A stretch of DNA of 64,000 nucleotides from a virus (IMGVR_UViG_3300005529_000008:1739-65738); one strand, 5' to 3'; positions 37,836 through 64,000 are shown, counted from the first letter of the stretch. Notes: a model not told the origin generated them from the letters alone. A program made the numbers and translations.

Positions 37836-39089
37836 ATGAAAAATTTTCTCAGCAAGTTTCTCCTGATCGTTGCCGGGTTGTTCGGCGCGACAACGTTCGG
37901 TCATGCACAAGGTAGCTGTATATTCTTCCCACTCCCTGGCGAGTATCAGAACCAGCCTAATGCGACGAACGTGTATCGGGTGGCGAGCGGTATCAATGCT
38001 AGCGGCACACCCGTCACAACCACGCCTATCTCAACCGACTCCACGCTTGCGACGACCGTGACACAACCCGCGAACGTTCCTCAGTCCGGTTCCGCGTTGC
38101 AAATCTGCGCCCCAGCCGGCCCGTATACGATTCAGTTTAATACTTCGAACGTAGGTGGGGGATTTTTTAACTATAACTTCATCATCCCCGCAGACGCGAC
38201 GAAGACTGTGGCGAGCGTATTTAAGGTGGTGGATGGCACCGATAACACAAAAGTTATCGTATTTCAAAGCTCTGGCGCCACGACCGCGACAACTCTCACC
38301 CTCGCGGATAGCTCCACTGTCAATCGCACGCTGACCTTCCCCGATGCGACCGACACGTTGGTAGGTAAGGCCACGACCGATACGTTGACGAATAAGACTC
38401 TGACTTCGCCCGTTATCGCGACGGGACTTACTGCGTCTGGCTCGGCTGCCAACGATTTTAGCGGCTCGACTGGCGCGTTTAAGCCTAGCACCGGCACCTT
38501 TACCTTCCAAGCTACTGCGGTGGCTGCGTCGGCTGGCGCGAATAACTTTGATCTTTCCGCTAGCTCGGGAACGTTTAAGACGACAACTGGCGTGGGTACG
38601 TTTGGTGGATCGTCTAACTCCTTCTCCGGAGCGGTGACAATTACTCCGACCGCCTCGTTGACGTTAGGCACGGCTGGCTCAGCCGTGGGACAGGCAATTT
38701 TCAACAACGCCACCTCTGGCACTATTACCCTCGCCCCGCCCACCGGCGCGTTGGGCAGCGTGACTGCGCAGCTCCCCGACACTACGGGTGGAATGCCGGT
38801 TGTGATTAACTGCGGTGCGGTGGCTGCGGCTGGTGCGTGTGCCAATACGAATACCAACGGCACGGCGCATATTTTCTACGGGCTATTCACGTTGTCCGGT
38901 AACTCCTCGCTGGCAACCGGACTCTCCCCCGCCTTTACCTCTACCACCTCCTTCGCGTGTAACGGAACTACATCCACCGGCACTGCCGCGACGATCAAAA
39001 TCGCCAACACCTCCGCTTCTACGATCACCATCACTAATCCGGGTGGCGGTGCGACGGATACGGTGAGTGTTATCTGCATCGGGAATTAA
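37836..39089 (+). CDS. fibre-like virion protein with Sec signal peptide
   Basis: MKNFLSKFLLIVAGLFGATTFGHA|Q; fibre motif RTLTFPDATDTLVGKATTDTLTNKTLTSP; Thr/Gly/Ser-rich; 6 Cys. Confidence 0.75.
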   Translation: MKNFLSKFLLIVAGLFGATTFGHAQGSCIFFPLPGEYQNQPNATNVYRVASGINASGTPVTTTPISTDSTLATTVTQPANVPQSGSALQICAPAGPYTIQFNTSNVGGGFFNYNFIIPADATKTVASVFKVVDGTDNTKVIVFQSSGATTATTLTLADSSTVNRTLTFPDATDTLVGKATTDTLTNKTLTSPVIATGLTASGSAANDFSGSTGAFKPSTGTFTFQATAVAASAGANNFDLSASSGTFKTTTGVGTFGGSSNSFSGAVTITPTASLTLGTAGSAVGQAIFNNATSGTITLAPPTGALGSVTAQLPDTTGGMPVVINCGAVAAAGACANTNTNGTAHIFYGLFTLSGNSSLATGLSPAFTSTTSFACNGTTSTGTAATIKIANTSASTITITNPGGGATDTVSVICIGN

Positions 39090-39120
39090 GACACGCCACC
39101 CAAAAGAGTGTGTAGAAGAA

Positions 39121-39146
39121 GGGCCGTTTGAAACGCGGCCCTTTTT
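39121..39146 (+). terminator. intrinsic terminator
   Basis: GGGCCG...CGGCCC followed by TTTTT. Confidence 0.75.
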
Positions 39147-39183
39147 CATTTCCCCACACCACCTCGCGATAAAATAGAGCTAG

Positions 39184-40761
39184 ATGCCCGCAACGTCTTC
39201 CAAATTAAAACTCACCGGCTCTCAAAGCGTCTTCCTCGACTTTCCTCGACCTGGCCAGTGCGATAAGCAATATAACGTTTATCAGCAGATGGTGGTGGGA
39301 GGATGGGCGAGCGGTAAGTCTTGGTCGGGTATTCAGAAGATTCTCTACCTCTCCGCGCTATTCCCCGGCAACGAATGTATGATCTGCCGCTTGCACGGCG
39401 CGGATCTTGAGAAGACCGTGATACCGGAGTTTTTTAAGCAATGTCCTCCGGGGTGGGTGCGGAAGATTCGTAATCGCGATCGTTCAAATATGATCGTGCA
39501 TTTCGTGAACGGCAGTATCTTATACTTCCAGCATATTCGAGACGCAGCACAGAAAGGCACTAAGACACGTATCACGGGACATAACTTGGGCGCGTTTCTT
39601 GTTGAGCAGGCGGAGGAAATATCCCGCGAAGAGTGGATGGCGCTTTGCGGTCGGTTGCGCAATACACGGGCGAAGGTGCGGTTCGCGCTTGGCAATGCTA
39701 ACCCTGCGGGGCGAGATTGGATTCAGCAGGATTTTTTCCCGAATTGGAAGGCGCTTGATCCCCGGCGCGGTGTGTATTTCCGCACGTATGTGAAGGGGAA
39801 CCGAATCGGGATACACGTTGATTCCGAAGAAAATCGCGTTTCCAATGGCGGTTTCGTAGACGATGCATTTTACGATAACGTAATCGCGAATTCCACGCAG
39901 GAATTTGTGGACCGTTATGTACATGCGAGCTTTGCCGATTTTACTGGGAAAGTTTATAAAGAATTTTCTGAAACCTCGGTACATAATATTGAGCCTCTGC
40001 CGCGCATACCGGACGGGTGGGAGTGTATTGGCGGGATTGATGTGGGCGGGGCGTGCGCGTGGTCGGTGTTGAAGGTGTACGTTGATAATGCGAAGAATTT
40101 AATCGTGGCAGGGGAGTTTGATAAGGCAACGCCGCTCGTAACGGATGTGGCGATGTGGATTAAGGCGAATATGCCGTGGGACGATCCCCGGACGACGTTT
40201 ATAATTGACCCGGAGAATAAAGTCGCAAGCGCCGATCTTGCTGAATTTGGAATCTATACGCGACCGGCGTGGAAGGGCGTGATTACGAATATCCAGCGCG
40301 TTTCGGGGTATTTGCATTGTGTGAAAGGCCGGCGCGCGCCACAATGGTTACACGATTACGATCCTGAACACGCGGCGAGGTGCGAGCGCGATGGCACGCC
40401 GCGTTTATTCGTGTATAGCGCCTGTACAACCTTCCGTAAAGAACACGACTCGGTGGTGTGGGACGATAAGCGCGTTAATCAGATTAAGAAAACGAAGACG
40501 GAACGCTACGATTCGGTGGATTGTGCGCAGTATATCGTGGCCACCCGGCCCGAGGCAAGGGAGTTGGCCGCGACGGAAGACCCCCGTATTGTGGAGATGC
40601 GCAAGGTGTCACCCCTCGCAGCACGGGAAATGCTAGAGGAACAACGTCTTATCGCGCAAATTAAAGCGCGGCAGGAGGGGCGTGGCACGGCGGAGATGTT
40701 TTGCGATTTTGACGATGGTGGGGGCGCGAGACAGTACGCAGAGGTGCCGTATTATGATTAG
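39184..40761 (+). CDS. terL: terminase large subunit
   Basis: GGWASGKS Walker A, LVEQAEE Walker B, ANP, GIDVG nuclease motif, DSVDCAQY. Confidence 0.9.
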   Translation: MPATSSKLKLTGSQSVFLDFPRPGQCDKQYNVYQQMVVGGWASGKSWSGIQKILYLSALFPGNECMICRLHGADLEKTVIPEFFKQCPPGWVRKIRNRDRSNMIVHFVNGSILYFQHIRDAAQKGTKTRITGHNLGAFLVEQAEEISREEWMALCGRLRNTRAKVRFALGNANPAGRDWIQQDFFPNWKALDPRRGVYFRTYVKGNRIGIHVDSEENRVSNGGFVDDAFYDNVIANSTQEFVDRYVHASFADFTGKVYKEFSETSVHNIEPLPRIPDGWECIGGIDVGGACAWSVLKVYVDNAKNLIVAGEFDKATPLVTDVAMWIKANMPWDDPRTTFIIDPENKVASADLAEFGIYTRPAWKGVITNIQRVSGYLHCVKGRRAPQWLHDYDPEHAARCERDGTPRLFVYSACTTFRKEHDSVVWDDKRVNQIKKTKTERYDSVDCAQYIVATRPEARELAATEDPRIVEMRKVSPLAAREMLEEQRLIAQIKARQEGRGTAEMFCDFDDGGGARQYAEVPYYD

Positions 40762-40807
40762 CGCGTTTTTACTGCGATAAAATATATCTAGTAGCGAGTT
40801 TCGAATT

Positions 40808-44140: not shown

Positions 44141-44746
44141 ATGCTAGAAAATCTCGGACGTTCGCGCACCGCGTCAACTTCGCAACTCGTCACGATAACT
44201 TTCGCGCCCAAGCTTGGCGCGGATGGTCTTTATGAAGATACCGGCACGTATGATGAGGTGTTGGAAGCGCATATACGGGAGGGCATTGCGAATGCCTTCC
44301 ACTATGCGGAGCCGGGAGTGGGGAATGGACGCACGTTCGATCCGAAAGGTACGTATTTATGTCGCGATTGTAATAAGTTCAAACGCGATGCGGCGGGATG
44401 CACGCTCGTACAGGGTAAAGTCTCCCCCGACCACGGCAGTTCGGAACACTGGGAGAATAAATTCCTCGGAGATCACGAGCAGGATTATCCAGAGTCTTTA
44501 AAGCTCAATAAAGAGGACGCATCTTATGGCGAGCGTCCCGACGGACATTTCGGATGTGGGGGCGGGTGTGAGTATGCGGTGCGCGCCAGGAAAGCCGACT
44601 CACAAGGCCGTGCGTTATTCTGCCGGCGCCACGCCACGCGTGTTATGGCGCTCGCGTGTTGTAAGGCGAATTCGCGCGATGGTGATGTGGCGTTTGAAGA
44701 GAATGAGCCGGTGACGGTGGGCGAGGAGGGCAAGGAGGAGTCGTGA
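44141..44746 (+). CDS. Cys-rich protein with two HiPIP-like Fe-S motifs
   Basis: C..C..F.....C.LV.G.VSP..G...W and K.DA.Y...P....C...C......C......CC. Confidence 0.5.
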   Translation: MLENLGRSRTASTSQLVTITFAPKLGADGLYEDTGTYDEVLEAHIREGIANAFHYAEPGVGNGRTFDPKGTYLCRDCNKFKRDAAGCTLVQGKVSPDHGSSEHWENKFLGDHEQDYPESLKLNKEDASYGERPDGHFGCGGGCEYAVRARKADSQGRALFCRRHATRVMALACCKANSRDGDVAFEENEPVTVGEEGKEES

Positions 44747-49410: not shown

Positions 49411-50121
49411 GTGGCCGTTCAATACTCCGAACTTCTCTCGCAAGTCCTGGCGCGTGTGTCGGGCAAGGGCAACGCATTCACGACCGATCAGTACCGTTCG
49501 TTTATCAACGAGGGTAAGGATGAGCTGTGGAAGGCTCTGGTTGCGACCACGGACGATTATTTTTTACAATCCACCGTCACCACGCCCTCGAACGCCGTCA
49601 ATCTCTTCGCGCCGCTGTCATTAACGGTGCGCGAGTACGTCCTACCCGGCGACTGTCTTAAGCCTCGCTTTATCGAAGTGCTCGGCCCCGCTGGGTACGA
49701 GATGACCCAGTTTATATACCGCAAAATCCACCACCCCGACTTTCAAGACCAGCGGAATCTATCCACGCAAAACGGGCCGCAGGGAGCGTCGGATGCGTTT
49801 CTCACCGCTGACGCGTATTATTACACGATTGTGGGAAAGAATACGTTGATGTTGGCGCGATATCCCGAGGTCGCGTTCACGTTAAAAGTGTGGTACGTGC
49901 GCGCCCTACCGGATATGGATGTGGGAAGTTCGATCGACGAGACTGTGGTTCCGTTTAAGTCCGATATAGTGAACTTCGCGGTGAAGCGATGTGAGCTGGT
50001 CGCGGACGCGGACGGCTTCGCGGGGTGGTTAGAAAGTTGGAAGGCGAGTATCGTGGAGACGGTGCAAGCGGCGGGGCCGCGTAGCGAGGGGGCGATTTTT
50101 GTACAGGATGCGGAATATTAA
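49411..50121 (+). CDS. head-tail adaptor / tail tubular protein A-like
   Basis: FINEG..EL, EY.LP.D, P.....L.VWY patterns; position after the MCP. Confidence 0.6.
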   Translation: MAVQYSELLSQVLARVSGKGNAFTTDQYRSFINEGKDELWKALVATTDDYFLQSTVTTPSNAVNLFAPLSLTVREYVLPGDCLKPRFIEVLGPAGYEMTQFIYRKIHHPDFQDQRNLSTQNGPQGASDAFLTADAYYYTIVGKNTLMLARYPEVAFTLKVWYVRALPDMDVGSSIDETVVPFKSDIVNFAVKRCELVADADGFAGWLESWKASIVETVQAAGPRSEGAIFVQDAEY

Positions 50122-50962: not shown

Positions 50963-53182
50963 ATGCCAAAAAAGCAAGCTAGCTCGAAAGAAACTTCCGG
51001 CACGTTTAACCTGTCCACGGCCTCTGAAAATACTTATGCCGGCCAAGACGCACAGGAAGCGGCTGGAGCGCGGCGTGTATTGTCGATGATCCCCAAAATC
51101 TCCGGCGAGATGGTGCGCGAGTTGGGACAGGCGAAGTATTTACCGACGCAGCTTCCCACGAAAATCGGCGCGTTGATGGATTATCCGTACAACGATTCTA
51201 ACGGTGTGCGCCAGTCTGTGCGCTTCGCCGTCGCCACGTCCGATAATATCGTGTTTGCGTTATATAAAGAAGTCGCCGGTGCGTGGGTTGTGCAGACCCT
51301 TCCGCTCAATAACGGGCTAACTTCGAATGCGCCATTTAACGACTTCCCCCAGTTCGTAGTATTGAATAATCTTCTCCATATCACAGACGGCACCACGTCT
51401 TGGATCTACGACGGGCCGAACGCCCAGTTCGTAATTGAAGGCTTCATCATCCCGCCCGTCCCGCCGAATATTGAAAATACGGGATTTGCGGGCACGTTTA
51501 GTTGCTCGGTGGGACGTTTCTACTGGATCACCTACGCCGACCATACCGTGGGTCGCGTGCATGAATCCAGCTCGTCGCCTATTTCCACTTCGCCTGTCAA
51601 CTCCCAAGGCTCCACCGGCCCCGTGGCGAATAAGTCAATTCAAGTACAAGCGTGTCGCACGCTCGTTACCACCACGATAGGTCTCACCGCGATCACCACT
51701 GGCGCAGGCGGATTCTTCCCCCAATTCGTGGGGATGAATTTGTATATCGGCGCGGTAAATTACGGTCGTATTGCCACATTTACCGATTCCGCACATATGA
51801 TACTCGATACTCCCGCGCCTGCAAGTAACGCCGGGGTAAATTGCATCATCGCCCCGCCCCGCGCCACGCATATTCATTTCTACTGTTCTGAGACCGATGG
51901 ATCGCGGTTGGGTAAGTTTCTCACCAGTATCTCGGTGCTTGATCCGAACGACTTTATAATGGACCAGGTTCCGTTTATTACTGATCCCACGAGTACGATT
52001 TCAACAGTGGATCGCCCAATCCGCAACGACCCTCCTGCGCCCAGTAAAATCGCGGAAGTCCATAAATATCGCATCTTCCGGCGTCGCGAGGCCAAGCCAA
52101 ATTTCTTCCACTTTTCGGGAAACGAAGAAATCTCGGCGGGGAACGGGAACGGCAGTCCTCAAGAATCCTACCCTGGCGCGGCAGGCACGGTTACGATGTC
52201 CGATATCGTGGATGAACAATCTTACCCACAATCTGCCAATCGTCTTCGCGGCTTGAAATCCCACGCCGACGCGCTATGGCTCGGCACGGAAAAAGGAATC
52301 GTGCCGTTATACGGTAATTCGATCGATGACTTCGGTCTAATGCAAGTCGTGACAATTACGGGCGGCGTAATATCGCGGTGGGGGATGGAGACGACGCCGC
52401 ACGGGTTGACGATTTTCGGGTACGATCGTCTATTGAAGCTCTACCCGCCCATTTCACCAATTTACTCCATACTCCCCCAAGATCTCAATGTCACCGACCA
52501 ACTTCTCGAAATTGGTCGCCCGATGCGCAAGAAATTTCTCACGATTAAGAATGTGGACCAGGACAATGTGCGCACGCTTCATTACCAGTACAACGAACGC
52601 GACTGGTTGGTGGTGTGTTACCAAGACAATACCTCAACCTACCACACTTACATCTACGACTTTGCGATCAAAGGGTGGTTCGAGTCGCAGCGCGGTTTTG
52701 CGAGCGTGGCGGTTTTCGAACCGATAGCCGGTAATGTCATTCTTGTCGGGGGCGGCACAGACGGCTTTGTGTACGTTATTGACGATCTCTCCGGCACATT
52801 CTCCAATGCGACTTGTCCCGCCGCGATATTTCGACCCGCGCTTATCAACTTCGGTCGCCCTGATATTATGCACCAGCTTTATTCGTTGGAGTATGAGTTA
52901 ACGAACGATGCTCTCTCAGCAGACGTAACGGTGAATTTCTACCTTGACCCGCAAGACGCCGATAATCCTGGTGCACCGTTCGGCCCGTTGAATTTTGCGA
53001 AAGTCCCAAATAGTGCTGCGCGATATCGTGCGTACTTCGCCGCGACGGACGGCGTAGTGGGAACATTGTGTAAGCGTGCGCTCATCGAATTTCAAATCGC
53101 ATCTTCCACAAACACCGGGGGTTTCCGTGGTATTATGCTTAAAGCGTGGCCGGTGGATGCAGAAGTGAATCAGGCGGGTTAG
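50963..53182 (+). CDS. tail tubular protein B / nozzle-like (beta-propeller) protein
   Basis: 739 aa, beta-rich; Y.IT......ES..S, YIYDF...W, GG.DG.VY; podovirus gene order. Confidence 0.65.
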   Translation: MPKKQASSKETSGTFNLSTASENTYAGQDAQEAAGARRVLSMIPKISGEMVRELGQAKYLPTQLPTKIGALMDYPYNDSNGVRQSVRFAVATSDNIVFALYKEVAGAWVVQTLPLNNGLTSNAPFNDFPQFVVLNNLLHITDGTTSWIYDGPNAQFVIEGFIIPPVPPNIENTGFAGTFSCSVGRFYWITYADHTVGRVHESSSSPISTSPVNSQGSTGPVANKSIQVQACRTLVTTTIGLTAITTGAGGFFPQFVGMNLYIGAVNYGRIATFTDSAHMILDTPAPASNAGVNCIIAPPRATHIHFYCSETDGSRLGKFLTSISVLDPNDFIMDQVPFITDPTSTISTVDRPIRNDPPAPSKIAEVHKYRIFRRREAKPNFFHFSGNEEISAGNGNGSPQESYPGAAGTVTMSDIVDEQSYPQSANRLRGLKSHADALWLGTEKGIVPLYGNSIDDFGLMQVVTITGGVISRWGMETTPHGLTIFGYDRLLKLYPPISPIYSILPQDLNVTDQLLEIGRPMRKKFLTIKNVDQDNVRTLHYQYNERDWLVVCYQDNTSTYHTYIYDFAIKGWFESQRGFASVAVFEPIAGNVILVGGGTDGFVYVIDDLSGTFSNATCPAAIFRPALINFGRPDIMHQLYSLEYELTNDALSADVTVNFYLDPQDADNPGAPFGPLNFAKVPNSAARYRAYFAATDGVVGTLCKRALIEFQIASSTNTGGFRGIMLKAWPVDAEVNQAG

Positions 53183-55082: not shown

Positions 55083-55964
55083 ATGCCTGTGCCCCTGTAC
55101 GCTCGTTCTGCCACCTACGATATCGAAACGGGGTGGTTGTTGGATATTGATGAAGTGCCGTGGGAGGGTGCATGGGAGTTGGAAAAAAAAGGAAGAGAAA
55201 GCGAACAGCGCGTAACCGACGCTTCCCTACAAAACGCCGCGAATGATGCGCAGCGGCAGGGTGAGCAATATGGCGCGGAGAAGGGTGATCTCGCGCAACT
55301 TGATACAATTGGCGCGAATGGGTTAGGATTGGGTGCGAGTGGATATCTCGCCAATCAATTAAATTCTATCGGGCGATCTTATGGCAATGCGCGCCAGAAT
55401 GCTGCGCGTATCAACGCCTCTCGCGGGTTAGGCTCAACCCCAGAAGGCGCGTTTCAATCCAGTTTAAACGGTGCGAACTTGGGACAAGCGGGGGCGGAAA
55501 ACGAAGCGTATAACAACGCGCAAATGCTCACTCGCGACAATATGCTTCAGGCGCTTGGTGCCCGTGCCGGATTGCAAAACACATATAATCCAAACGGTGC
55601 TTTATCGGTCGGCGCACAATCCGCGTATGATCAAAATCACATGGGTAGTTTGCTTGGCGATATTGGTGCGGGATTATCAAGTGCTGCTGGAATTGTCGGG
55701 AGCGGGTTTGGTCTTGCAAATCAGGTTAAAGGCGGCGTGTGCTGGATCGCAGAGGCACTGTGGGGCGTGGATGATTTACGCACTCATATTGTGCGCGGGT
55801 GGTTAAATTATTCGCGGTTCGCAAATACTGTGTTGGGTCGCGCAATCCTGGTGCTTTACCGCACTTTCGGTCAACGCTTAGCAAAATGCCGCTGGGCGGT
55901 GTTGAAATTACGTCCGCTTTTTAACCTCGCGTTACGGCGCGCAACCACGGAGGCGTGGCAATGA
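55083..55964 (+). CDS. internal virion/ejection protein with N-terminal leader and C-terminal CFI-box-CTERM-like domain
   Basis: Gly/Ala/Asn/Gln-rich body; hydrophobic Gly-rich segment, then GGVCWIAEALWG...VR.WL...LG.....LY..FG.RLA. Confidence 0.7.
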   Translation: MPVPLYARSATYDIETGWLLDIDEVPWEGAWELEKKGRESEQRVTDASLQNAANDAQRQGEQYGAEKGDLAQLDTIGANGLGLGASGYLANQLNSIGRSYGNARQNAARINASRGLGSTPEGAFQSSLNGANLGQAGAENEAYNNAQMLTRDNMLQALGARAGLQNTYNPNGALSVGAQSAYDQNHMGSLLGDIGAGLSSAAGIVGSGFGLANQVKGGVCWIAEALWGVDDLRTHIVRGWLNYSRFANTVLGRAILVLYRTFGQRLAKCRWAVLKLRPLFNLALRRATTEAWQ

Positions 55965-57793
55965 TAGTTGATCCCAGTCTTTTACAGCCGTCGCGCAACC
56001 CTCTCACCGCTGCCGCTGGAATTCCCGATGTGTTGGCGAAGTTGCTCGGAGGCGGTACGGGAGATGGCGCGCAAGGTGATGTGCCGCCACCGGACGTTGT
56101 GCCGCGCTTGCCACAACCGAACGCGTCGAATAGCGCTGTTCCGCCTCCATCAATTGTGCCGCCCCCGTCCGCGCCGAAAGAGGACGACGTAACACCGCCA
56201 AAATCCCTTGCAGACTTGGCGCAACGCACGCAGGAGAATGTAAATGCGCCCGTCCCTCCGCCCGATGTACTAGCGGCGTCAAAAGTGGGCGAGGACGGGA
56301 GTGCGGTGCCAAATTTACCCGGAACGGTGCAAACGGCACAGGCGCCTAAACTCGCGCCGCTCCATCCCTCTCTTCTCTCGCGTATCCTGCCAATTGTAGG
56401 CGCAGTGGGCGCGGGTATGGAAGCGGCGGGAAATCGTGGCGAAGCTCCCAACGCCGCACGGTTACAAGCGACGTTACAAAATCAAGCGCAGCAACGCTTG
56501 CAAGCTGAACGACTGCACAATGTCGAAGAACCGGAAGCCGAAGCACGCGCCGCTTTACAACGCGCACAGGCCCAGTCCACGCAAAATACCGTGCCGGTTG
56601 ATGTGAACGGGCAACGTTACTACGTGCCACAATCACAACTTTCGAAAATTCTCTCACCACAAATCGCGGGGCAGTCGCGGGAGAATGTACAGACATTACG
56701 TAATACTGGAAACGTTGATGTACAGAATTTAAAGAACTCGGGTCGGATGAGTATTGAGCAGATGAAGGCGTTAATTCAACAAGGAAAAGTTGCTCGCGTT
56801 ATTCCCGGCAAAGATCCCGAGACTGGCGAGACAACTATGCTCGCCTATAATGCGCAAAATCAGCTTCTCGGAGCTGCACAGAATTCGCTTGCACCAGCAC
56901 AGTTTTATAATAAACTCACCTCCACCACCCAATATATGGCCGACGCCGCTGGAAATATCCAAGCGTTGCCGAAGAATACGGTGTCGGGGGTGCAGTTGCC
57001 GGGAAGTGTTGGAGGGATTGGGAGTGTTGTGCCGAATGCGCCGGGTAGTAATGGGGCGCGTCCACAACATAACACCGGCGCACAGCCTCCACGAGCCAGT
57101 GGCGCAACTACCGCCGCACCAATCCAAGCTCGGCCTGTCAATGGCGCAAACGGCCAGCCGATGGTTAATGCGGCGAGTACTAAATGGGTTCAGTGGCAAG
57201 ATCCAGTTTCGGGCCGTAATGTTGCCGGTCCCGCATCTATGGCGCCCCCAAATTCAAATCCCGCCCAGCTCCCCGCGCAAGAAGTGCGTGATGTGAACAA
57301 CGCTCGCCATGCGGTAAATTTGATAACAAAAACTGGCGACCTGAATAAGCCCGAAACCCAGGGAGTGTTACAGCTTCTCGATTCGCTTGATAAAGAAGGT
57401 AAGTTGGGGATTGTCGCTTCGCGGTGGAATAAATTTATAACATCGGGCGTCGGCACAAGCCCCAACGATGATCCGCGTATTATCATGCTCATCAATAAAA
57501 ATATGTTAGCTGATACTGCAACAATGCTTGCCCATTTTGGGGCAGCCGGCGGTCGATCGCCACAAATGTTGCAGCATTTTTTAGATCTTGCGAACGCTGG
57601 GAGAATGGATGGAATAACATTGCGCGCCGGTGTGATGGCGATGGCCGATTATATGAAAGACCGTGCAATGATGCCCGAGGCTACACCACAACGCACCGCG
57701 CCGCAACAGAATACTCAACCCACGCATGTCGTAAAAGTAAATGGCGTTCGAACGGGCACAGTTGTGAATAACGTGTACGTACCGGACAAATAA
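55955..57793 (+). CDS. internal virion/ejection protein
   Basis: 612 aa, Pro/Ala/Gln-rich; second of three consecutive ejection-type genes. Confidence 0.6.
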   Translation: MAMIVDPSLLQPSRNPLTAAAGIPDVLAKLLGGGTGDGAQGDVPPPDVVPRLPQPNASNSAVPPPSIVPPPSAPKEDDVTPPKSLADLAQRTQENVNAPVPPPDVLAASKVGEDGSAVPNLPGTVQTAQAPKLAPLHPSLLSRILPIVGAVGAGMEAAGNRGEAPNAARLQATLQNQAQQRLQAERLHNVEEPEAEARAALQRAQAQSTQNTVPVDVNGQRYYVPQSQLSKILSPQIAGQSRENVQTLRNTGNVDVQNLKNSGRMSIEQMKALIQQGKVARVIPGKDPETGETTMLAYNAQNQLLGAAQNSLAPAQFYNKLTSTTQYMADAAGNIQALPKNTVSGVQLPGSVGGIGSVVPNAPGSNGARPQHNTGAQPPRASGATTAAPIQARPVNGANGQPMVNAASTKWVQWQDPVSGRNVAGPASMAPPNSNPAQLPAQEVRDVNNARHAVNLITKTGDLNKPETQGVLQLLDSLDKEGKLGIVASRWNKFITSGVGTSPNDDPRIIMLINKNMLADTATMLAHFGAAGGRSPQMLQHFLDLANAGRMDGITLRAGVMAMADYMKDRAMMPEATPQRTAPQQNTQPTHVVKVNGVRTGTVVNNVYVPDK

Positions 57794-59980
57794 ATGGGAC
57801 AGAACACACAGCAAATTAAAGGTCTACCAGCGGGCGCGACGGTAGAACCGGTTGGTTCGGCGGGTGGTAGTACGGGTACGCCACAAATCAGCGGCCTACC
57901 TCCCGGCGCGTCCGTGGAAGCTATCCCGCAACTCAATAACGCCGACAAGCCCCTTCGGATGTTCCGCTCCGATACGGGCGCGGAGCAAGATGTGCCACGC
58001 AATCAAGTGGGCGATTTTGCGAAACAGGGATGGCAGGCCGGGAGTGCGCCGCAGAAGTCGGGTGCGAGTGGTGAAGGCTTTGGAACGTCCTTCGCTCACG
58101 CAGCCGGTGTTCCGGCTTCGATAAGCGAAGTTACAGATTCGGTAAAAGATAAATCGGTGCCACAACTTCTTGGCGGCGCACTTATGCGTTTCTCCCCCGC
58201 TGGAATGGCAGTGCGCGGATATCAGGCCATTTTTAACGCAGATAAAAAACTCGCGACGGGTCATCCGTTAGAGGCGGTTGAAGCGACTCCGGGCGGCGGC
58301 GCGGTTAAGAAAACGGCAGAACAAGTTGGCGAGGGAAATTATTCTGGCGCAGCGGGAACTTTACTCGGCACAGCCGCTCCGCTACTCGCTACGAAAGCTT
58401 TGGAACGCGCCGGTGTAGGCTCGGTTGATGAACAAGGAATTAAGATAAACGGAAAAGAGCCTGTAACGCGAGAAGCCGCGCGAGATAATTTAGTCAAAGC
58501 CGTCAACCCCGCCGCGTCCGATATGGGCACGATGAACGCGCATGGAGGCGGGACGGGGTTTAAAGGTAACTTGGACGCCACGCTCGATCACGTCGTGGAT
58601 GCAGGACAGAAAGGCGGATTTGCAGATAAAGTTACCGGCGCAAAAACTCCCGGACAGGCTTTGGAAACCGCTGCAATGGCCCCGGAAGCCGCATATAAAA
58701 ACCTCCCCTACTTCAAAGAGGTGATGGAACCGAACCTGGCGAAAACCGCCGACGTTACGTTCAATAACTATCGGGGCGGGAAGACGGGATATAATCAAGC
58801 AACCGTGGCGCAACTCAACGACCGGCTCACCGCGATCAATGCGGAGATGTACGGGAAGTATCAGCAAGGTGGTGCGGGTAGTGCGCGGGCCGATGCGGCG
58901 GTGAATGCCGAGCGCGTGCAATCCCTACAACAAGAAGCGGCGGGGATTCGTGATGCTCTTGATAAGACCCTTGCGCGAGAGACGGGTGTGCCGATTGACC
59001 GTTTAAAAGGGATGCGCCAGCAGTACGGCCAGCTCAAAGATGTCGCGGACACGATGAAGCTGCGCGCAGCAGAATTACAACACGGCGAGAACGCGACGGC
59101 GAACAAGACGCTTTCCGAGCAAGTTCCTTCGCATCTTTCGGTGCCGGCAGTGTTGTTGAAAACTGGCGCGAAAGTCGCGGACAAAGTGCGCGGCAACCCG
59201 GTCATCAACGGAATTCAAGATGCGTTTAAATATAAACCAACACCTCCCGCGCCGTTCAACGTAAATCCGCCCCTCGCACCCACTCCATACCAAGCGCCGA
59301 ATAACTTGCCATTCGGTCGCCCCGGCACGCAGTCATCGCTACCGCCTGAGGTTTTACGCGTGTTACAACAGGCAGAGGAACAAAACGCGTCGCCTAAAAC
59401 GATGACGGGTAAACCACTTACGGAACGCGCTCGGCGCGCCGCCAATGCTAATTTAGAAGCCGAGAGCCGCTTAAAGAACTCTTTGCCTACATCACCACCC
59501 AACGCGCCGCAGGTTGAGCCGCTGGCGCCCTCTGTAGCGGGTCCGCAGACCGGCACGTTGCCGTTGCCGAATAGGGGCGGTACTTTAAATCGGCCCCCGT
59601 TACAGCTACCCCCCGGCCCAACCGCGCCACCACAACTTCCCCAAAACGCCTCACCCATCGCGCTCCCGCCCAGCTCCGTCTCGCAGCTCATGCAGTATAT
59701 TGAGAGCGGGAGCAAGCCAGTGCCGCGCAGTGAGTTGCCGATTACGACCACACCGTCGAAACCGAACGTGGCACGCACTGCTCCACTCGCGCCAAAAAGT
59801 ACCAGCGGCGCGGTTGAGTCCTCGAATCTACCTACCGTGCGCAATATGACCACCGAGGTGAACGTAATCCACCCGGACGGCACGCCCGGTACGGTGCCCT
59901 CTGCGATGTTGCCGGAGTATTTGAGCAAAGGTTACAAGCTCGCCGCGCCGTTAGGTCGGGGCGCGTCGGGAGGGCAGTAA
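57794..59980 (+). CDS. large internal virion/ejection protein
   Basis: 728 aa; N-terminal QI.GLP.GA.VE repeat; Ala/Gly-rich. Confidence 0.6.
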   Translation: MGQNTQQIKGLPAGATVEPVGSAGGSTGTPQISGLPPGASVEAIPQLNNADKPLRMFRSDTGAEQDVPRNQVGDFAKQGWQAGSAPQKSGASGEGFGTSFAHAAGVPASISEVTDSVKDKSVPQLLGGALMRFSPAGMAVRGYQAIFNADKKLATGHPLEAVEATPGGGAVKKTAEQVGEGNYSGAAGTLLGTAAPLLATKALERAGVGSVDEQGIKINGKEPVTREAARDNLVKAVNPAASDMGTMNAHGGGTGFKGNLDATLDHVVDAGQKGGFADKVTGAKTPGQALETAAMAPEAAYKNLPYFKEVMEPNLAKTADVTFNNYRGGKTGYNQATVAQLNDRLTAINAEMYGKYQQGGAGSARADAAVNAERVQSLQQEAAGIRDALDKTLARETGVPIDRLKGMRQQYGQLKDVADTMKLRAAELQHGENATANKTLSEQVPSHLSVPAVLLKTGAKVADKVRGNPVINGIQDAFKYKPTPPAPFNVNPPLAPTPYQAPNNLPFGRPGTQSSLPPEVLRVLQQAEEQNASPKTMTGKPLTERARRAANANLEAESRLKNSLPTSPPNAPQVEPLAPSVAGPQTGTLPLPNRGGTLNRPPLQLPPGPTAPPQLPQNASPIALPPSSVSQLMQYIESGSKPVPRSELPITTTPSKPNVARTAPLAPKSTSGAVESSNLPTVRNMTTEVNVIHPDGTPGTVPSAMLPEYLSKGYKLAAPLGRGASGGQ

Positions 59981-59981
59981 C

Positions 59982-60476
59982 GTGGCGGGGTATAAGGGAG
60001 ATCCGCATTTCACACCGACTGGGCCGGTTAAGATGCCGTTTCAAGGCACCCATTTCTCCGACCAACCAATATCGGGTGGAGTGTTGCGCGGTTCGATGCG
60101 CGGCGCGAGTGGTGCGGAAGAGTCGGCACGGCTTGATGTGCCACCCCAAGCTCCTGCGGGCGTACATGTGGTGCGCCAGGGACATCTCGCGCATCCGCAT
60201 TTACGGTTACGGAAATATTCAAGCGGGGTATCGGGGAACAAAGCCATCGCGGATGTGGAAGGTGCGCAACACGAACTTTGGAACACTTCCGTGCAGCAAG
60301 GTCACGCTGCGGCGTTACAGAATGGGCTTGACCCTAAAACGGCGCAACTCTCCGCGCTCAATGCCGGTGAGCATGGCATAAAAGCGGCGGGTTATGATGG
60401 GATGGAGTTCGGACGTTCGGCTCCCGGATCGGTACTGATGTTCGGAGATGTGGCGGTGGATAAATCGCATGTTTGA
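59982..60476 (+). CDS. hypothetical protein
   Basis: GTHFS...L, IKAAGYDG pattern. Confidence 0.55.
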   Translation: MAGYKGDPHFTPTGPVKMPFQGTHFSDQPISGGVLRGSMRGASGAEESARLDVPPQAPAGVHVVRQGHLAHPHLRLRKYSSGVSGNKAIADVEGAQHELWNTSVQQGHAAALQNGLDPKTAQLSALNAGEHGIKAAGYDGMEFGRSAPGSVLMFGDVAVDKSHV

Positions 60477-61022: not shown

Positions 61023-62825
61023 ATGAGAATTTTGCGTAATTTTGCGGCGTTTTTGGCGGTTTTTTGTGGCGTGTGTGCGGCACAATCCACCGTGACCGTG
61101 ACTGCCAATGTAAAGACAATCTTCGGTGGCAACTCCACCACTCGCGTGAAGGCGTGTTTTACCTTGCTCACCAGCGACGGGCAGCAGCCCGCTGATCCAC
61201 ACGTTGTTGGAAGCGGTGTGCTGGTACCGACGCAGACGCAGTGTCTTTCACCGGACGGCAATGGTCTCATATCGACCACGCTCATTCCTAACGATCAGAT
61301 AACGGTTGGGGGTATTACGAATACTACTAACTATAGTCTAACGTGGCTATACAACGGCTCCCCGGCGCACGGCGCACTTTACAACTTCCTCCTCGCAGAC
61401 GTGACGGAAGACTTGAACTCGAAATCACCAGTGAATTTATCGGTCTCGCCCAGTGTAACGCCCACCGATCAAATCTACGCGCGTCTTGACGGCGGGAATC
61501 AACCCTTCCTCGGCCCGATTCGAAGTTGTGTGATGAACGGAATGTATGTGGCTGGTTCATCCTGTTACCCTACTATCCACCAGGCAATCACCGCCGTCTG
61601 CACATCTTCTCCCGCAGGTGGCGCGATCTGGATTCCACCTGGTACATACGTTGAGAATTCTTCATTAAGTGTGGCGAACGGGACGTGGTGTAATTCAGTA
61701 GCACTGTTGGGCGCGGGCGCCGGTCAGTGTGATTCCGTTACTCCGCCCGTTACAATCACTAGCACTATTACTTCAGGCCATTTAATTGATGGGCTAAACG
61801 CGAATGACTGGGGCGTGTTTAACGTTTGCTTAAAAAATACTGGCACGGGCAGCACGGGAGCAGCGATAAACTTCGCTTCCTCACAACGCGCTTCGGTCGG
61901 CAACGTCTATGTCTCCGGCCCCTTCGGCCAAGGTGTGCGTTTCTTCTCATCTTCTATCGCCTCTGCCTCGACGATTTGGAATAATATTAACAACATTCAC
62001 TGTACAGGCTTAGCGGCGAATGGTACGGGCATTCTAATGGACTCATCCAACGCCAGTGCGAAAGTTATCAACGGGAATAACATTCTGCAAGATCATTGTA
62101 CAGGCGGGACGGGCGGCAAGGCATTGTGGCTCACAAACTCCGGCGTTCATAATCAGGTCATCAACGACAATGTGATTGAGTGTACAGAGTGCTCCGCAAC
62201 CTCCGGTACCGGCGTGCAAATCGACAACGGTTCCACTAGCCGGTTGACGTTACTCGCGCCGGATATCGAAGGCAGCACGACAGGTTTTGTAAAACAGACC
62301 GCGAACACAGTCTTGATAATCAACGGTTTCATAGGATCGAACGGTAATAACTCGCTCGCCGCAAATGTACAAGACTCCCAACCCGCCTTTACCAGTTTTC
62401 TTAACACTAGTATCGGCGGAGTCGTGCAGCAATTTGCCGTAGATCCCGCTGGTGGAATAATCGTAAACTGCGTGTCGTTTCCCGGCGCGAATTGTAATAG
62501 CCTAACTAATCTTATGAACGGTATCGATGGGTGGGGTTTCGGGGTAGCGGGTACACAACGCTTCCAAGTACATGCGGGATCACTCACTCCCAACGTTGCG
62601 GCGGCGGAAGATTTAGGCACGTCTAGTCTACCTTTCGGCAATATCTTCATGCAAGGCACCCTGACTCTTGCGCCGAATATCTCGTGGAAAAGCGGCGTGG
62701 GTGTGCCTGCGGCAGGAACGTGTGTTGCGGCGAACGGGGGAAGTTTGTACAGTCGCACGGACTCTGACGCTACGCACACGCTGTACGTCTGTGATAATTC
62801 CACCCATACTTGGACGCCCAAATAG
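61023..62825 (+). CDS. tailspike-like beta-helix protein with Sec signal peptide
   Basis: MRILRNFAAFLAVFCGVCAA|Q; TI.QAI.A.....GG.I.IPPGTY pectate-lyase start; C-terminal G.G.P.....GSLY.RTD....LYV...W; many Cys. Confidence 0.8.
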   Translation: MRILRNFAAFLAVFCGVCAAQSTVTVTANVKTIFGGNSTTRVKACFTLLTSDGQQPADPHVVGSGVLVPTQTQCLSPDGNGLISTTLIPNDQITVGGITNTTNYSLTWLYNGSPAHGALYNFLLADVTEDLNSKSPVNLSVSPSVTPTDQIYARLDGGNQPFLGPIRSCVMNGMYVAGSSCYPTIHQAITAVCTSSPAGGAIWIPPGTYVENSSLSVANGTWCNSVALLGAGAGQCDSVTPPVTITSTITSGHLIDGLNANDWGVFNVCLKNTGTGSTGAAINFASSQRASVGNVYVSGPFGQGVRFFSSSIASASTIWNNINNIHCTGLAANGTGILMDSSNASAKVINGNNILQDHCTGGTGGKALWLTNSGVHNQVINDNVIECTECSATSGTGVQIDNGSTSRLTLLAPDIEGSTTGFVKQTANTVLIINGFIGSNGNNSLAANVQDSQPAFTSFLNTSIGGVVQQFAVDPAGGIIVNCVSFPGANCNSLTNLMNGIDGWGFGVAGTQRFQVHAGSLTPNVAAAEDLGTSSLPFGNIFMQGTLTLAPNISWKSGVGVPAAGTCVAANGGSLYSRTDSDATHTLYVCDNSTHTWTPK

Positions 62826-62868
62826 CCCGAAGGTGGCTGATAAAATAGACTTAGGAGCCTTCCCGCGT

Positions 62869-63096
62869 ATGTCTGAGCACGATAACCACGATAACGATGT
62901 CGAACGCACACTTGGACGATTAGAAAGTGCCGTGGCGGCGATTCACGAGAATACAAAAGTCCTGCCCGAGTTGACGCTAAAAGTCGAGCGGCACGACAAT
63001 GAACTACGCGCGGTGAAATACATCGCTGGGGCCGGTTTCCTCGCGATTATTGGCAATATCGTGGGGTGGATCAAATCGCACTTGGGGGTACATTAA
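62869..63096 (+). CDS. holin/XhlA-like membrane protein
   Basis: coiled coil plus one C-terminal TM; AGGAG RBS. Confidence 0.5.
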   Translation: MSEHDNHDNDVERTLGRLESAVAAIHENTKVLPELTLKVERHDNELRAVKYIAGAGFLAIIGNIVGWIKSHLGVH

Positions 63097-63507
63097 ATGG
63101 CAGTTTATGTCAAGGATAAAAGTTCGCGCAGTATCTCTATCGGCCCCACAATCCCCGCCACATCGCCTAAGGAGAACGCGAATACGACGCCACGCAATTC
63201 GGGCGCGGCAACTGGGGCGGGCGACGAATTCATTTACATCCCCCACATAGGACAGGGGTATCAGTATCCGGTAGATATCGCATGGGACGTTGTGGTGAGT
63301 GCAGGGGGTACGCTCGCCGCGCTAGTTGTGAATTTAGAAGTCTCCGACGATGATGGCACGACTTGGAGCACGCTAGACTCCAATGCCTCCCCAACCGGGG
63401 GCCGTCGCGTCGTGTCGAATACTCTTGCAAAACGACTCCGCGCAAATATTGCGACTTTCACCATCAATGCCGGTCTTCCCGTCGTGACCGTTGGAATAAC
63501 CTGCTAG
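63097..63507 (+). CDS. small beta-sandwich virion protein
   Basis: VNLEVSDDDGTTW (Asp-box-like), RLRANI. Confidence 0.6.
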   Translation: MAVYVKDKSSRSISIGPTIPATSPKENANTTPRNSGAATGAGDEFIYIPHIGQGYQYPVDIAWDVVVSAGGTLAALVVNLEVSDDDGTTWSTLDSNASPTGGRRVVSNTLAKRLRANIATFTINAGLPVVTVGITC

Positions 63508-63518
63508 GAAATTCTCTC

Positions 63519-64000
63519 ATGAAAAAACTTCTATTTCTTTTCGCGTTACTTGCCGCGACCCTTACCTCCGCGCAGATGAACAGCTACCAAACCGCGACCC
63601 TTTCGGCAGCGTGTACGAACGCCAACACGACCTGTGCGGGAGTAGCGAATTCGCAGTTGAACGTGAGCACGGTCGGTTTCAATGTGGCCAGCGTGACTGT
63701 TCACGGCACTTATACTGGACTCACATTGAACTTCGATATATCGGACGATGGCGGCACAACTTGGTATGCCGACACCTGCACACGGGGCGATACGCCCACG
63801 CAAGAGTCTTCCGAAGTCGTTACGAACTCCGCCACACGACAATGGGACTGCGGCGTGTCGGGAACGTCGAACTTCCGTGTGCGCAATAACGCCATTTCGA
63901 CCGGCGCAGATATTATCGGGATTACCCTATCGGTCTCGAATATTGAACCCGCGCCCACCGTTTCGTTGTCGGGCAGCGTCACCACAACTCTCGGCGCAGG
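63519..64000 (+). CDS. signal-peptide-bearing virion-like protein (runs off the window)
   Basis: MKKLLFLFALLAATLTSA|Q; LNFDISDDGGTTW, FRVR; paired Cys; open to the window end (absent from the ORF track). Confidence 0.75.
   Translation, partial: MKKLLFLFALLAATLTSAQMNSYQTATLSAACTNANTTCAGVANSQLNVSTVGFNVASVTVHGTYTGLTLNFDISDDGGTTWYADTCTRGDTPTQESSEVVTNSATRQWDCGVSGTSNFRVRNNAISTGADIIGITLSVSNIEPAPTVSLSGSVTTTLGA

What the first reader, a model, noticed from the sequence alone, without database searches (positions are those of the whole stretch)
37836..64000. Virion fibre/spike proteins carry Sec signal peptides: candidate periplasmic virion-maturation system
Seen: three late genes encoding virion-appendage-like proteins start with classic cleavable signal peptides. 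They are 37836-39089 (fibre repeat TLTFPDATDTLVGKATTDTLTNKTLT; ...FGHA|Q), 61023-62825 (beta-helix tailspike with a head/tail-attachment-like N-domain; ...VCAA|Q) and 63519-end (...LTSA|Q). All have Gln at +1 and multiple Cys, often paired. Capsid, portal, adaptor and nozzle have no such peptide, and 63097-63507 is a signal-less relative of 63519 (both have SDDxGTTW). Established: tailed-phage structural proteins normally fold and assemble in the cytoplasm; disulfides form in the periplasm. Inference: these adhesins are exported, oxidised and N-terminally pyroglutamylated, then attach to particles at or after lysis. Alternatively they act as secreted receptor-masking or depolymerase proteins.
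Basis: partly seen in the sequence, partly recalled or inferred. Interest (0 to 1): 0.85.

Follow-up and report, generated by a model that had tools for sequence, protein, structure and literature searches.

The report
Phage tail fibres with export signals
A complete, uncultured short-tailed phage encodes its only candidate host-binding fibres and spike with cleavable secretion signals and paired cysteines, which suggests they mature outside the cytoplasm, where the rest of the particle is built.

Summary
The window is nearly all of a complete 65.7-kb phage record. Genes 37836-39089, 61023-62825 and 63519-end (541 aa, running over the record's end) start with Sec/signal-peptidase-I-type leaders followed by Gln. 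A fourth such gene (92-646) looks like an outer-membrane barrel.

The leaders are conserved. Of 78 relatives of the spike's N-terminal domain, 68 carry a hydrophobic leader and 10 start directly at the domain. A Cys45/Cys74 pair occurs only in leader-bearing relatives (36 of 68 against 0 of 10) and never as a single Cys. Nine of 10 leaderless relatives have Arg plus Asp/Glu there. Leader-bearing relatives of the fibre and third protein have about four times the cysteine density of leaderless relatives sharing the same repeats. Export into an oxidising compartment is therefore well supported.

The spike's mature N-domain (pLDDT 89) best matches N-terminal parts of virion-bound fibres. The gene sits where T7-like phages keep their fibre gene, and I found no leaderless fibre candidate.

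Best reading (about 0.5): virion receptor-binding proteins mature in the periplasm and dock at lysis. Virion incorporation is unproven. Secreted free glycanases or adhesins remain the main rival. The host is unknown. My searches found no precedent.

The parts
37836..39089 (+). Fibre-like protein, 417 aa. It has a 24-aa leader (37836-37907), an N-domain beginning QGSC, one tail-fibre repeat, and a C-terminal domain with four invariant Cys. It lies directly upstream of the large terminase gene.
   Evidence: Translation. Weak phrog_692 virion structural protein hit, E 1.3e-5. Relatives and alignment A2 show invariant C326, C335, C375, C414. The position is the same in G001 and G002.
61023..61082 (+). 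Leader of the spike (20 aa, ...GVCAA|Q)
   Evidence: Relatives in G001 and G002 also have leaders ending FG|Q.
61083..61517 (+). Mature N-terminal beta-sandwich domain of the spike (residues 21-165), carrying the Cys45/Cys74 pair. It is a candidate particle-docking domain.
   Evidence: Model pLDDT 89.1. The four best VIA rows are N-terminal parts of virion-bound fibres, Z 8.0-9.9. 103 relatives in the representative library. Cys pair statistics.
61530..62417 (+). Right-handed beta-helix core of the spike (about residues 170-465)
   Evidence: Blocks of 10 residues have pLDDT mostly 72-95 over residues 170-440. Foldseek matches at E 2e-5 to 3e-3 include GH87 glucanases, AlgE epimerases/lyases, Klebsiella phage depolymerases and phage tailspikes.
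62418..62825 (+). C-terminal part of the spike (residues 466-600), poorly modelled
   Evidence: pLDDT 31-65.
63097..63507 (+).
   Evidence: One 24-residue local match to the N-domain of the next protein. Weak phrog_427 hit, E 0.004.
63519..64000 (+). First 160 codons of the third leader-bearing protein (541 aa in all). It has an 18-aa leader (63519-63572), a beta-sandwich N-domain with an Asp-box-like motif, two copies of a repeat widespread in phages, and a Cys-bearing C-terminal part. The gene continues outside the window at bases 91-1234 of the record.
   Evidence: (P0154).
63911..64000 (.). The 90-base terminal repeat of the record, lying inside the third gene
92..646 (+). Fourth leader-bearing protein (184 aa, ...TFA|QTV), not in the finding. 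It has no Cys and ends ...GFHF, so it looks like an outer-membrane beta-barrel.
   Evidence: Protein-atlas lead to an OMP_b-brl cluster at 0.97. No Pfam, PHROG or NCBIfam hit.
49411..50121 (+). Tail adaptor, no leader
   Evidence: Pfam SU10_adaptor, E 6.4e-8, 33.7 bits against a cut-off of 27.
50963..53182 (+). 739-aa protein following the adaptor, no leader. I read it as the nozzle from its position only.
   Evidence: 60-64% identical in G001 and G002. No family hit.
55083..59980 (+). Three proteins (293, 612 and 728 aa). The two large ones are Cys-free and rich in Pro/Ala/Gln. I read them as internal or ejection proteins from composition and position.
   Evidence: No family hits.
59982..60476 (+). 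164-aa Cys-free protein just upstream of the spike, conserved at the same place in G002

Best explanation
These are the receptor-binding proteins of a virulent, T7-like-organised short-tailed phage, made as Sec precursors.

Proposed steps:
1. The host Sec system exports them.
2. Signal peptidase I cuts before Gln.
3. The proteins fold and form disulfides in the periplasm.
4. Head, portal, adaptor, nozzle and internal proteins assemble in the cytoplasm.
5. The cut exposes, as the new N-terminus, a beta-sandwich of the kind that anchors fibres to phage particles.
6. The spike, and probably the fibre and the third protein, dock onto finished particles only when lysis merges the two compartments.

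Status of each step:
- Shown from sequence and comparison: leaders of signal-peptide form, their conservation, the coupling of leader with paired cysteines, the beta-helix core, the docking-like fold, and the gene order.
- Inferred: actual export and cleavage, disulfides, presence in virions, and the time and place of docking. Pyroglutamate is possible but untested.
For: Leaders are conserved.
- Spike: 7 of 11 relatives have leaders by eye.
- Fibre: 17 of 21 relatives sharing the C-domain.
- Third protein: 12 of 15 relatives sharing the C-terminal part.
- Spike N-domain: 68 of 78 relatives.
- Five further virus contigs also have leaders.

Leaders are coupled to cysteines.
- Fibre set: Cys 1.27% in 26 leader-bearing against 0.29% in 90 leaderless, with none against 36 Cys-free.
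- Third set: 1.20% in 37 against 0.40% in 67. Counts are even in 32 of 37 against 22 of 50.
- Spike N-domain set: counts are even in 59 of 68.
- Cys45+Cys74 occur together in 36 of 68 leader-bearing and 0 of 10 leaderless relatives, and never singly (0 of 78). Nine of 10 leaderless have Arg plus Asp/Glu.

The proteins look like virion parts.
- The beta-helix resembles phage depolymerases and tailspikes.
- The N-domain model has pLDDT 89.1.
- The four best of 48,161 chains are N-terminal parts of virion-bound fibres or neck/tail-tip chains, aligned from their residue 1-2: cyanophage A-1(L) neck fibre Z 9.9, Ur-lambda tail tip Z 9.0, Bxb1 tail tip Z 8.9, XM1 neck Z 8.0.
- BFVD gave 12 hits at E<=1e-3, including tail fibre proteins.
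- The N-domain is joined to C-terminal parts of very different length (131-1206 aa proteins; P0012), as in exchangeable receptor-binding proteins.

Gene order fits. It runs adaptor, 739-aa protein, Cys-free Pro/Gln-rich proteins, then spike, and is the same in G001 and G002. A like order occurs in the unrelated loci L021 and L022. That this matches T7 genes 11-17 is recalled knowledge.

No leaderless fibre candidate turned up in the complete genome.

The repeats of the fibre and the third protein are shared with leaderless proteins. Two of these carry the tail-fibre or depolymerase domains Peptidase_S74 and Phage_depo_C.
Against: - No datum shows these proteins in virions or in the periplasm.
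- SignalP was not available, so leader calls rest on my heuristic and on inspection.
- The docking-like fold is a common beta-sandwich. Pilins, carbohydrate-binding modules and transthyretin-like domains follow at Z 5.7-7.2, and Foldseek against the PDB found nothing at E<=1e-3.
- In the small spike set, cysteine density did not differ (6 against 3 proteins, p 0.36).
- 32 of 68 leader-bearing N-domains lack the Cys pair.
- The counted sequences are related, so the statistics overstate independence.
- No endolysin or holin was recognised. There is only a weak Rz-like hit at 5331-5654, E 0.004. The lysis route that would merge the compartments is therefore unknown.
- The host is unknown.
- I know of no tailed phage shown to assemble this way.
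Confidence: 0.5

Rival explanations
1. The proteins are exported but are not part of the particle. They would be free secreted or surface-bound glycanases and adhesins made late in infection. Possible roles are loosening capsule or exopolysaccharide for release, destroying or masking receptors so progeny are not lost on debris, or changing the infected cell's surface. The particle would bind its host with the nozzle or small unrecognised proteins.
For: - The leaders and paired cysteines fit any exported protein.
- The beta-helix resembles secreted bacterial glycan enzymes (GH87 glucanases, AlgE epimerases) as much as tailspikes.
- A close relative is named as a GH28-related protein in an Acidobacteriota bin on a 100-kb contig.
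- The same genome encodes an outer-membrane-barrel-like protein with the same kind of leader, so the phage does send proteins to the envelope.
- P. gingivalis phages encode Gln+1 signal-peptide proteins of unknown function that their authors propose may modify the host outer membrane (PMC10367356, passages read).
- Halos from free depolymerase are known (PMC6116005, passages).
Against: - The complete genome would then have no recognisable fibre or spike for the particle.
- The spike sits at the fibre position of the tail module in three related phages.
- Its N-domain best matches particle-docking parts of fibres and starts exactly at the mature N-terminus, as the leaderless relatives do at residue 2-5.
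- A conserved N-domain joined to swapped C-terminal parts is the pattern of particle-bound receptor-binding proteins.
Confidence: 0.28
2. Dual fate. Export is incomplete, so precursor left in the cytoplasm is built into particles while the exported share acts as free enzyme.
For: Free and particle-bound depolymerase from one gene is known for other phages (PMC6116005, passage). Nothing here excludes slow export.
Against: - There is no in-frame start just after the leader that would give a leaderless docking domain. The next Met in the spike is near residue 171.
- An uncleaved 20-residue hydrophobic extension would sit on the very end that leaderless relatives and solved fibres use as their N-terminus.
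- The strictly paired cysteines argue that folding depends on oxidation.
Confidence: 0.07
3. The hydrophobic N-termini are not export signals. They would be wrong start calls, uncleaved membrane anchors, or chance.
For: No predictor or experiment was run. The ORF at 37812 has an alternative upstream start. Fibre relatives P0025, P0026 and P0050 have about 90 residues before the hydrophobic segment.
Against: - For 61023 the leader begins at the first start codon after a stop.
- The source's gene calls use the same starts (P0005, P0017, P0154).
- Leaders recur in dozens of clusters that are at most 50% identical, each with a charged start, a hydrophobic run and a small-x-small site followed by a conserved mature end.
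- There is no lipobox Cys at +1.
Confidence: 0.05

Closest known systems
Podophage tailspikes and depolymerases (P22 gp9, Klebsiella phage KP32gp38 and Depo32, CBA120 TSPs)
   Same: A right-handed beta-helix core preceded by an N-terminal domain that, in those phages, binds the particle. The gene lies at the end of the tail module.
   Different: As far as I know, and as one preprint remarks for P22 (10.64898/2026.09.13.751334, legend passage), those have no signal peptide and fold in the cytoplasm. There is no sequence match to any GenBank phage record. This spike has 16 mature cysteines.
N-terminal docking domains of fibres seen in solved virions (cyanophage A-1(L) neck fibre 8keg, Ur-lambda tail tip 9e7m, Bxb1 tail tip 9d93, XM1 neck 7kjk)
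   Same: A beta-sandwich of about 95 aligned residues, Z 8.0-9.9, rmsd 2.4-2.6, starting at residue 1-2 of the solved chains and residue 2-3 of the mature domain.
   Different: Identity is 12-19%, so this is fold-level likeness only. Here the domain is uncovered only by removal of a leader, and in 36 of 68 leader-bearing relatives it carries a Cys pair.
Sec-exported and SAR endolysins (fOg44 Lys44 and others)
   Same: Late proteins of tailed phages that use the host Sec system before lysis (PMC6116005, passages).
   Different: Those are lysis enzymes, not parts of the particle.
Lambda Lom and Bor, and T5 Llp
   Same: Phage proteins with signal peptides encoded among or beside tail fibre genes. 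The 184-aa protein at 92-646 resembles Lom in this respect (Lom: PMC12309495, passage; Bor and Llp recalled).
   Different: They go to the host envelope and are not fibres.
Gln+1 signal-peptide proteins of Porphyromonas gingivalis phages
   Same: Phage genes whose predicted cleavage exposes Gln (PMC10367356, passages).
   Different: Those are five genes of unknown function in temperate phages of a Bacteroidota host. They are not described as fibres or spikes in the passages I read.
Filamentous phage coat proteins (pIII, pVIII)
   Same: Virion proteins that carry signal peptides and are assembled from the membrane or periplasm side (recalled; also the abstract of PMC4823517 in the listing).
   Different: That is a different virus realm, with extrusion and no lysis and no cytoplasmic capsid.

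Membership tests
Sec / signal peptidase I signal peptide | Positively charged n-region, uncharged hydrophobic h-region, and small residues at -3 and -1 | tested here: met
   Met by all four proteins under my heuristic and by inspection.
Sec / signal peptidase I signal peptide | No lipobox Cys at +1 (which would mark signal peptidase II) | tested here: met
   +1 is Gln in all four.
Sec / signal peptidase I signal peptide | Score from a trained predictor, and experimental cleavage | not testable with these tools
   No SignalP here and no proteomics.
Bacteroidetes Q-rule substrates | Gln directly after the cleavage site | tested here: met
   Met by 4 of 4 in the genome. 61 of 71 leader-bearing relatives have Gln after a candidate site, by a permissive count.
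Bacteroidetes Q-rule substrates | Host belongs to Bacteroidota | tested here: inconclusive
   - Shine-Dalgarno-like motifs lie before 35 of 75 starts, against 7-16 of 75 in five control windows. This is unlike Bacteroidota as I recall them.
- A named relative lies in a Candidatus Angelobacter (Acidobacteriota) bin.
- The atlas lead for the barrel-like protein names Bacteroidota for a few members.
- The Q-rule paper surveyed Bacteroidetes, Chlorobi, Spirochaetes, Chlamydiae and Cyanobacteria, and does not mention Acidobacteria.
Bacteroidetes Q-rule substrates | N-terminal pyroglutamate made by a host glutaminyl cyclase | not testable with these tools
   The host is unknown and there is no proteomics.
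Beta-helix tailspike / depolymerase | Right-handed parallel beta-helix | tested here: met
   Model core residues 170-465. 20 Foldseek hits at E<=1e-3, all beta-helix glycan enzymes, adhesins or phage spikes.
Beta-helix tailspike / depolymerase | Sequence family match (Pfam PF12708) | tested here: inconclusive
   No Pfam hit for the window's protein at E<=0.1. Relatives P0007 and P0016 carry PF12708.
Beta-helix tailspike / depolymerase | Homotrimer bound to the particle, with glycan-cleaving activity | not testable with these tools
   A trimer of 600 residues exceeds the complex tool's size limit.
Fibre N-terminal docking domain (lambda-like tail fibre N-terminus and kin) | Fold likeness at the extreme N-terminus of the mature protein | tested here: met
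   Z 8.0-9.9 to four virion chains. BFVD tail fibre proteins. One row named as a lambda-like tail fibre N-terminal domain has only E 0.057.
Fibre N-terminal docking domain (lambda-like tail fibre N-terminus and kin) | Binds a tail or neck protein of its own particle | not testable with these tools
   This needs structures or pull-downs of particles.
Type IX secretion cargo / PEP-CTERM proteins | C-terminal sorting domain recognised by the curated models | tested here: not met
   No NCBIfam or Pfam hit at E<=0.1 for any of the leader-bearing proteins. That the NCBIfam library holds these models is recalled.
Phage tail fibre repeat proteins | Shares the repeat with proteins carrying tail-fibre or depolymerase domains | tested here: met
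   phrog_692, E 1.3e-5. 83 repeat-only relatives, 77 of them leaderless. P0031 has Peptidase_S74 and P0128 has Phage_depo_C.
Outer-membrane beta-barrel (for 92-646) | Signal peptide, C-terminal aromatic residue, and a family match | tested here: inconclusive
   The leader and the terminal ...GFHF are present. No Pfam, PHROG or NCBIfam hit. There is an atlas feature lead to a PF13505 cluster at 0.97.

The most novel reading that the evidence does not exclude
Two-compartment virion assembly. In a widespread group of uncultured short-tailed phages, the receptor-binding fibres and spikes are Sec-exported, trimmed to a Gln (possibly pyroglutamate) N-terminus, and locked by disulfides in the periplasm. 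The DNA-filled, fibreless particle waits in the cytoplasm. Infectivity arises only when lysis merges the compartments. Relatives without leaders, which have a salt bridge in place of the disulfide, show that the same docking domain has moved between the cytoplasmic and periplasmic routes.
Probability: 0.45. Interest if true: 0.9.

Novelty: new variant of a known kind. Interest (0 to 1): 0.8.

Why it matters
Textbook assembly of tailed phages is wholly cytoplasmic. If receptor-binding proteins can be routed through the periplasm, several things follow.
- The last assembly step would be tied to lysis.
- Phage adhesins could use disulfides and blocked N-termini for stability outside the cell.
- Gene annotators would need to stop treating a signal peptide as evidence against a structural role.
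- Host prediction from fibres could use leader features such as Gln at +1.

The paired data set makes this directly testable by expression, fusion reporters and particle proteomics. It comprises leader-bearing and leaderless versions of one docking domain, with a disulfide in one and a salt bridge in the other. If the rival is right instead, these phages secrete a battery of fibre-derived glycanases and adhesins, which would matter for how phages remodel soil biofilms.

Tried and rejected
- **Complex prediction.** Adaptor (3-row alignment) with the spike N-domain (53 rows) gave no answer, score 0.00.
- **Locus scans.**
  - The capsid protein in viral contigs found no relative.
I then used A2, A5 and A6.
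  - The one genome-contig scan gave a single 7.2-kb contig binned to a Pacearchaeota MAG, which says nothing about the host.
- **GenBank phages.**
  - No match for the spike, fibre or third protein.
  - The capsid matches only at 32% identity or less, to uncultured and actinobacterial phages.
- **Family scans.**
  - No Pfam, PHROG or NCBIfam family for the spike, third protein, barrel-like protein or most tail proteins.
  - No type IX or PEP-CTERM sorting domain.
  - No endolysin, holin or integrase recognised.
- **Structure.**
  - The first spike model was poor outside the beta-helix, mean pLDDT 62.3.
  - Foldseek of the N-domain against the PDB gave nothing at E<=1e-3.
- **Leaderless relatives.** A search for their loci in IMG/VR returned only leader-bearing genes.
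- **Literature.** Searches for a precedent found none. I saw listings and the passages cited, not whole papers or supplements. Supplementary Data 4 of PMC10367356 could hold annotations of its signal-peptide genes that I could not see.

Full report
**What the window is.** The window is bases 1739-65738 of a 65,738-base IMG/VR virus record. The record is rated complete and has a 90-base terminal repeat.
- Early and replication genes lie on the minus strand up to about 31 kb. They include a family A DNA polymerase, a sigma-70-type factor, a UDG-like protein, a dNMP kinase and an exonuclease.
- Late genes lie on the plus strand from about 32 kb.
- Recognised late genes are a DNA methyltransferase (32986), large terminase (39184), portal (41176), major head protein (46696) and an SU10-type adaptor (49411).
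- I saw no integrase.
- No GenBank phage is close. The capsid matches at 32% identity or less, and the three proteins of the finding do not match at all.

**The observation.**
- Gene 63519 runs through the terminal repeat to the other end of the record and encodes 541 aa. The database holds the same 541-aa product (P0154).
- A simple heuristic over the chosen ORFs picked these three plus a fourth at 92-646 (...TFA|QTV). It picked none of the head, portal, adaptor or nozzle genes.
- All four have Gln at +1.
- Mature cysteine counts are 6, 16, 8 and 0. Late proteins without a leader hold 47 Cys in 5,982 residues.
- The supposed kinship of 63097-63507 with 63519 is one 24-residue local match.

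**Are the leaders real?** SignalP was not available, so I tested conservation.
- *Spike.* There were 12 hits, one of them a fragment of the same protein with the same start. Of the other 11, seven have leaders by eye, four of these cut before Gln. Two begin with a non-Met residue and look like fragments. One starts at the beta-helix. One (P0010) starts exactly at the mature end.
- *Fibre.* I classed 119 relatives.
  - Of the 21 that share the Cys-bearing C-domain, 17 are leader-bearing. Three of the four exceptions have a hydrophobic segment after an extension of about 90 residues.
  - Of the 83 that share only the fibre repeat, 6 are leader-bearing.
  - A further 15 fell in an 'N only' class (3 leader-bearing), which I did not resolve.
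  - In alignment A2 the leaders differ in sequence, while the mature start QGGC and four cysteines (C326, C335, C375, C414) are invariant or nearly so.
- *Third protein.* I classed 119 relatives. Of the 15 that share the C-terminal part, 12 are leader-bearing. Of the 84 that share only the repeat, 20 are.
- Across the three sets, 61 of 71 leader-bearing proteins have Gln after a candidate site.

**The spike N-domain family.** A full search of 1.84 billion representatives with residues 21-165 gave 103 hits. I examined the 78 whose match begins within the first six residues of the domain. I dropped 24 partial matches and the self hit.
- 68 have a hydrophobic leader of 15 or more residues before the domain.
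- 10 begin at residue 2-5.

**Coupling of leader and cysteines.**
- Fibre set: leader-bearing proteins have 1.27% Cys (n=26, none Cys-free). Leaderless proteins have 0.29% (n=90, 36 Cys-free).
- Third set: 1.20% (n=37) against 0.40% (n=67). Counts are even in 32 of 37 against 22 of 50. Proteins not starting with Met were set aside: 3, 15 and 2 in the three sets.
- The small spike set showed no difference (6 against 3 proteins).
- N-domain set: counts are even in 59 of 68 leader-bearing proteins, and median Cys is 1.58% against 0.45%.
- Most telling are the columns of Cys45 and Cys74.
  - They hold Cys+Cys in 36 of 68 leader-bearing proteins and in 0 of 10 leaderless ones.
  - No protein has a Cys at only one of the two columns (0 of 78).
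  - 9 of 10 leaderless proteins have Arg plus Asp or Glu.
- That pattern looks like a disulfide exchanged for a salt bridge, found only where a leader is present.
- The sequences are related, so the p-values overstate independence. The pattern itself is clear.
- I take export into an oxidising compartment as well supported (about 0.85-0.9).

**Are they virion parts?**
- *Fold of the core.* Residues about 170-465 of the spike model form a beta-helix. It matches GH87 glucanases, AlgE epimerases/lyases, Klebsiella phage depolymerases and several tailspikes.
- *Fold of the N-domain.* With a 53-row alignment the mature N-domain modelled at pLDDT 89.1 as a beta-sandwich.
  - Foldseek against the PDB found nothing at E<=1e-3.
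  - The exhaustive VIA search of 48,161 chains put four phage chains on top: cyanophage A-1(L) neck fibre (Z 9.9), a 94-residue chain of the Ur-lambda tail tip (Z 9.0), a Bxb1 tail-tip chain (Z 8.9) and an XM1 neck chain (Z 8.0). All align from their residue 1-2.
  - Generic sandwiches follow at Z 7.2 and below.
  - BFVD gave 12 hits at E<=1e-3. Named rows further down include tail fibre and minor tail proteins.
  - The margin over common sandwiches is modest, so I count this as support, not proof.
- *Gene order.* It runs adaptor, a 739-aa protein, small genes, then 293-, 612- and 728-aa proteins (the last two Cys-free and Pro/Ala/Gln-rich), a 164-aa protein, and then the spike. As I recall it, this is the T7 order of genes 11 to 17.
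- *Synteny.* The order recurs in the related records G001 and G002. Both also keep the leader-bearing fibre directly upstream of the terminase gene, and their spike leaders are cut before Gln.
- *Other phage contigs.*
  - G003 has a cluster of large leader-bearing proteins (573, 1143 and 605 aa) beside its terminase gene.
  - L021 and L022 show a large protein, then Cys-free Pro/Gln/Ala/Gly-rich proteins, then a leader-bearing spike-like gene.
  - In L027 the spike-like gene lies between terminase and portal.
- *Modularity.* The N-domain is joined to C-terminal parts of many lengths. In P0012 it is joined to a different C-terminal part.
- *No alternative.* I found no large leaderless fibre candidate in the complete genome.

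**Mechanism proposed.** Sec export, cleavage before Gln and oxidative folding would produce stable trimers in the periplasm, while fibreless particles fill in the cytoplasm. Docking would follow when lysis joins the compartments.
- That fibres and tailspikes can attach to finished particles in vitro is classical for T4 and P22 (recalled).
- The lysis genes here are unrecognised, apart from a weak Rz-like hit. The timing is therefore inference.
- I put this reading at about 0.5.

**Rivals.**
- The main rival (0.28) is that the proteins are exported but stay free, or sit on the cell, as glycanases or adhesins.
- Minor rivals are a dual fate (0.07) and leaders that are not export signals (0.05).

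**Host.**
- Gln at +1 is documented as a rule for Bacteroidetes. The survey covered only five groups and did not cover Acidobacteria (PMC5837995, passages; PMC10653852, passages).
- This phage has Shine-Dalgarno-like motifs before 35 of 75 starts, against 7-16 of 75 in control windows.
- A close spike relative is named from a Candidatus Angelobacter (Acidobacteriota) bin.
- The host phylum stays open, and so does pyroglutamate formation.

**Known parallels and novelty.**
- Signal peptides in tailed phages are known for endolysins (PMC6116005, passages) and for Lom (PMC12309495, passage).
- P. gingivalis phages encode Gln+1 proteins of unknown function (PMC10367356, passages).
- Seven literature searches turned up no report of signal peptides on tail fibres or tailspikes. 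[quoted passage not shown]
- These searches cover open-access text only, and supplements were closed.
- I rate the finding a new variant of a known kind. The parts are familiar, but the routing, if confirmed, is a new assembly path.

Noticed in passing
window 92-646 (+): A 184-aa protein with a leader cut before Gln, no cysteine, and a C-terminus ...AAVGFHF. It looks like a small outer-membrane beta-barrel encoded beside the fibre genes, much as lom is in lambda. It has no family hit, only an atlas lead.
   Followed up: partly
window 53139-53732 (-): A 197-aa ORF antisense inside the tail module. It contains ...IIDPPYSPRQ..., which resembles the DPPY motif of DNA methyltransferases (motif recalled; sequence).
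   Followed up: no
window 9815-10453 (-) and 6422-9487 (-): The phage encodes its own sigma-70-type factor (regions 2 and 4) and a family A DNA polymerase. No integrase was seen.
   Followed up: no
window 36332-36402 (+): ARAGORN reports a tRNA-like gene with an undetermined anticodon.
   Followed up: no
window 63911-64000: The 90-base terminal repeat lies inside a coding gene. It is more likely the overlap of a circular or permuted assembly than a physical genome end.
   Followed up: no
L002 6585-6902: A relative of the fibre's Cys-bearing C-domain (39% identity) lies on a 7.2-kb contig binned to a Pacearchaeota MAG. This is probably a phage contig in the bin.
   Followed up: no
G001 2192-2926 (+) and G002 33484-34197 (-): Next to the spike gene, both related phages encode a protein with a lipobox-like leader (MYK...LCIAA..C..AQ) followed by a Pro/Thr-rich linker.
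   Followed up: no
L021 7620-8000 and L022 7671-8000: The reading frame stays open from a Pro/Gln-rich stretch upstream straight into the leader of the spike-like gene. I did not resolve whether this is an overlap, a fusion or chance.
   Followed up: no
proteins P0025, P0026, P0050: These fibre relatives have about 90 residues before the hydrophobic segment. That would make it a membrane anchor or reflect a mis-called start.
   Followed up: no
window 24898-25317 (-), 26751-27245 (-), 44141-44746 (+): Small proteins with unusually many cysteines (10 in 139 aa, 9 in 164 aa, 8 in 201 aa) and no leader. They are possibly metal-binding.
   Followed up: no
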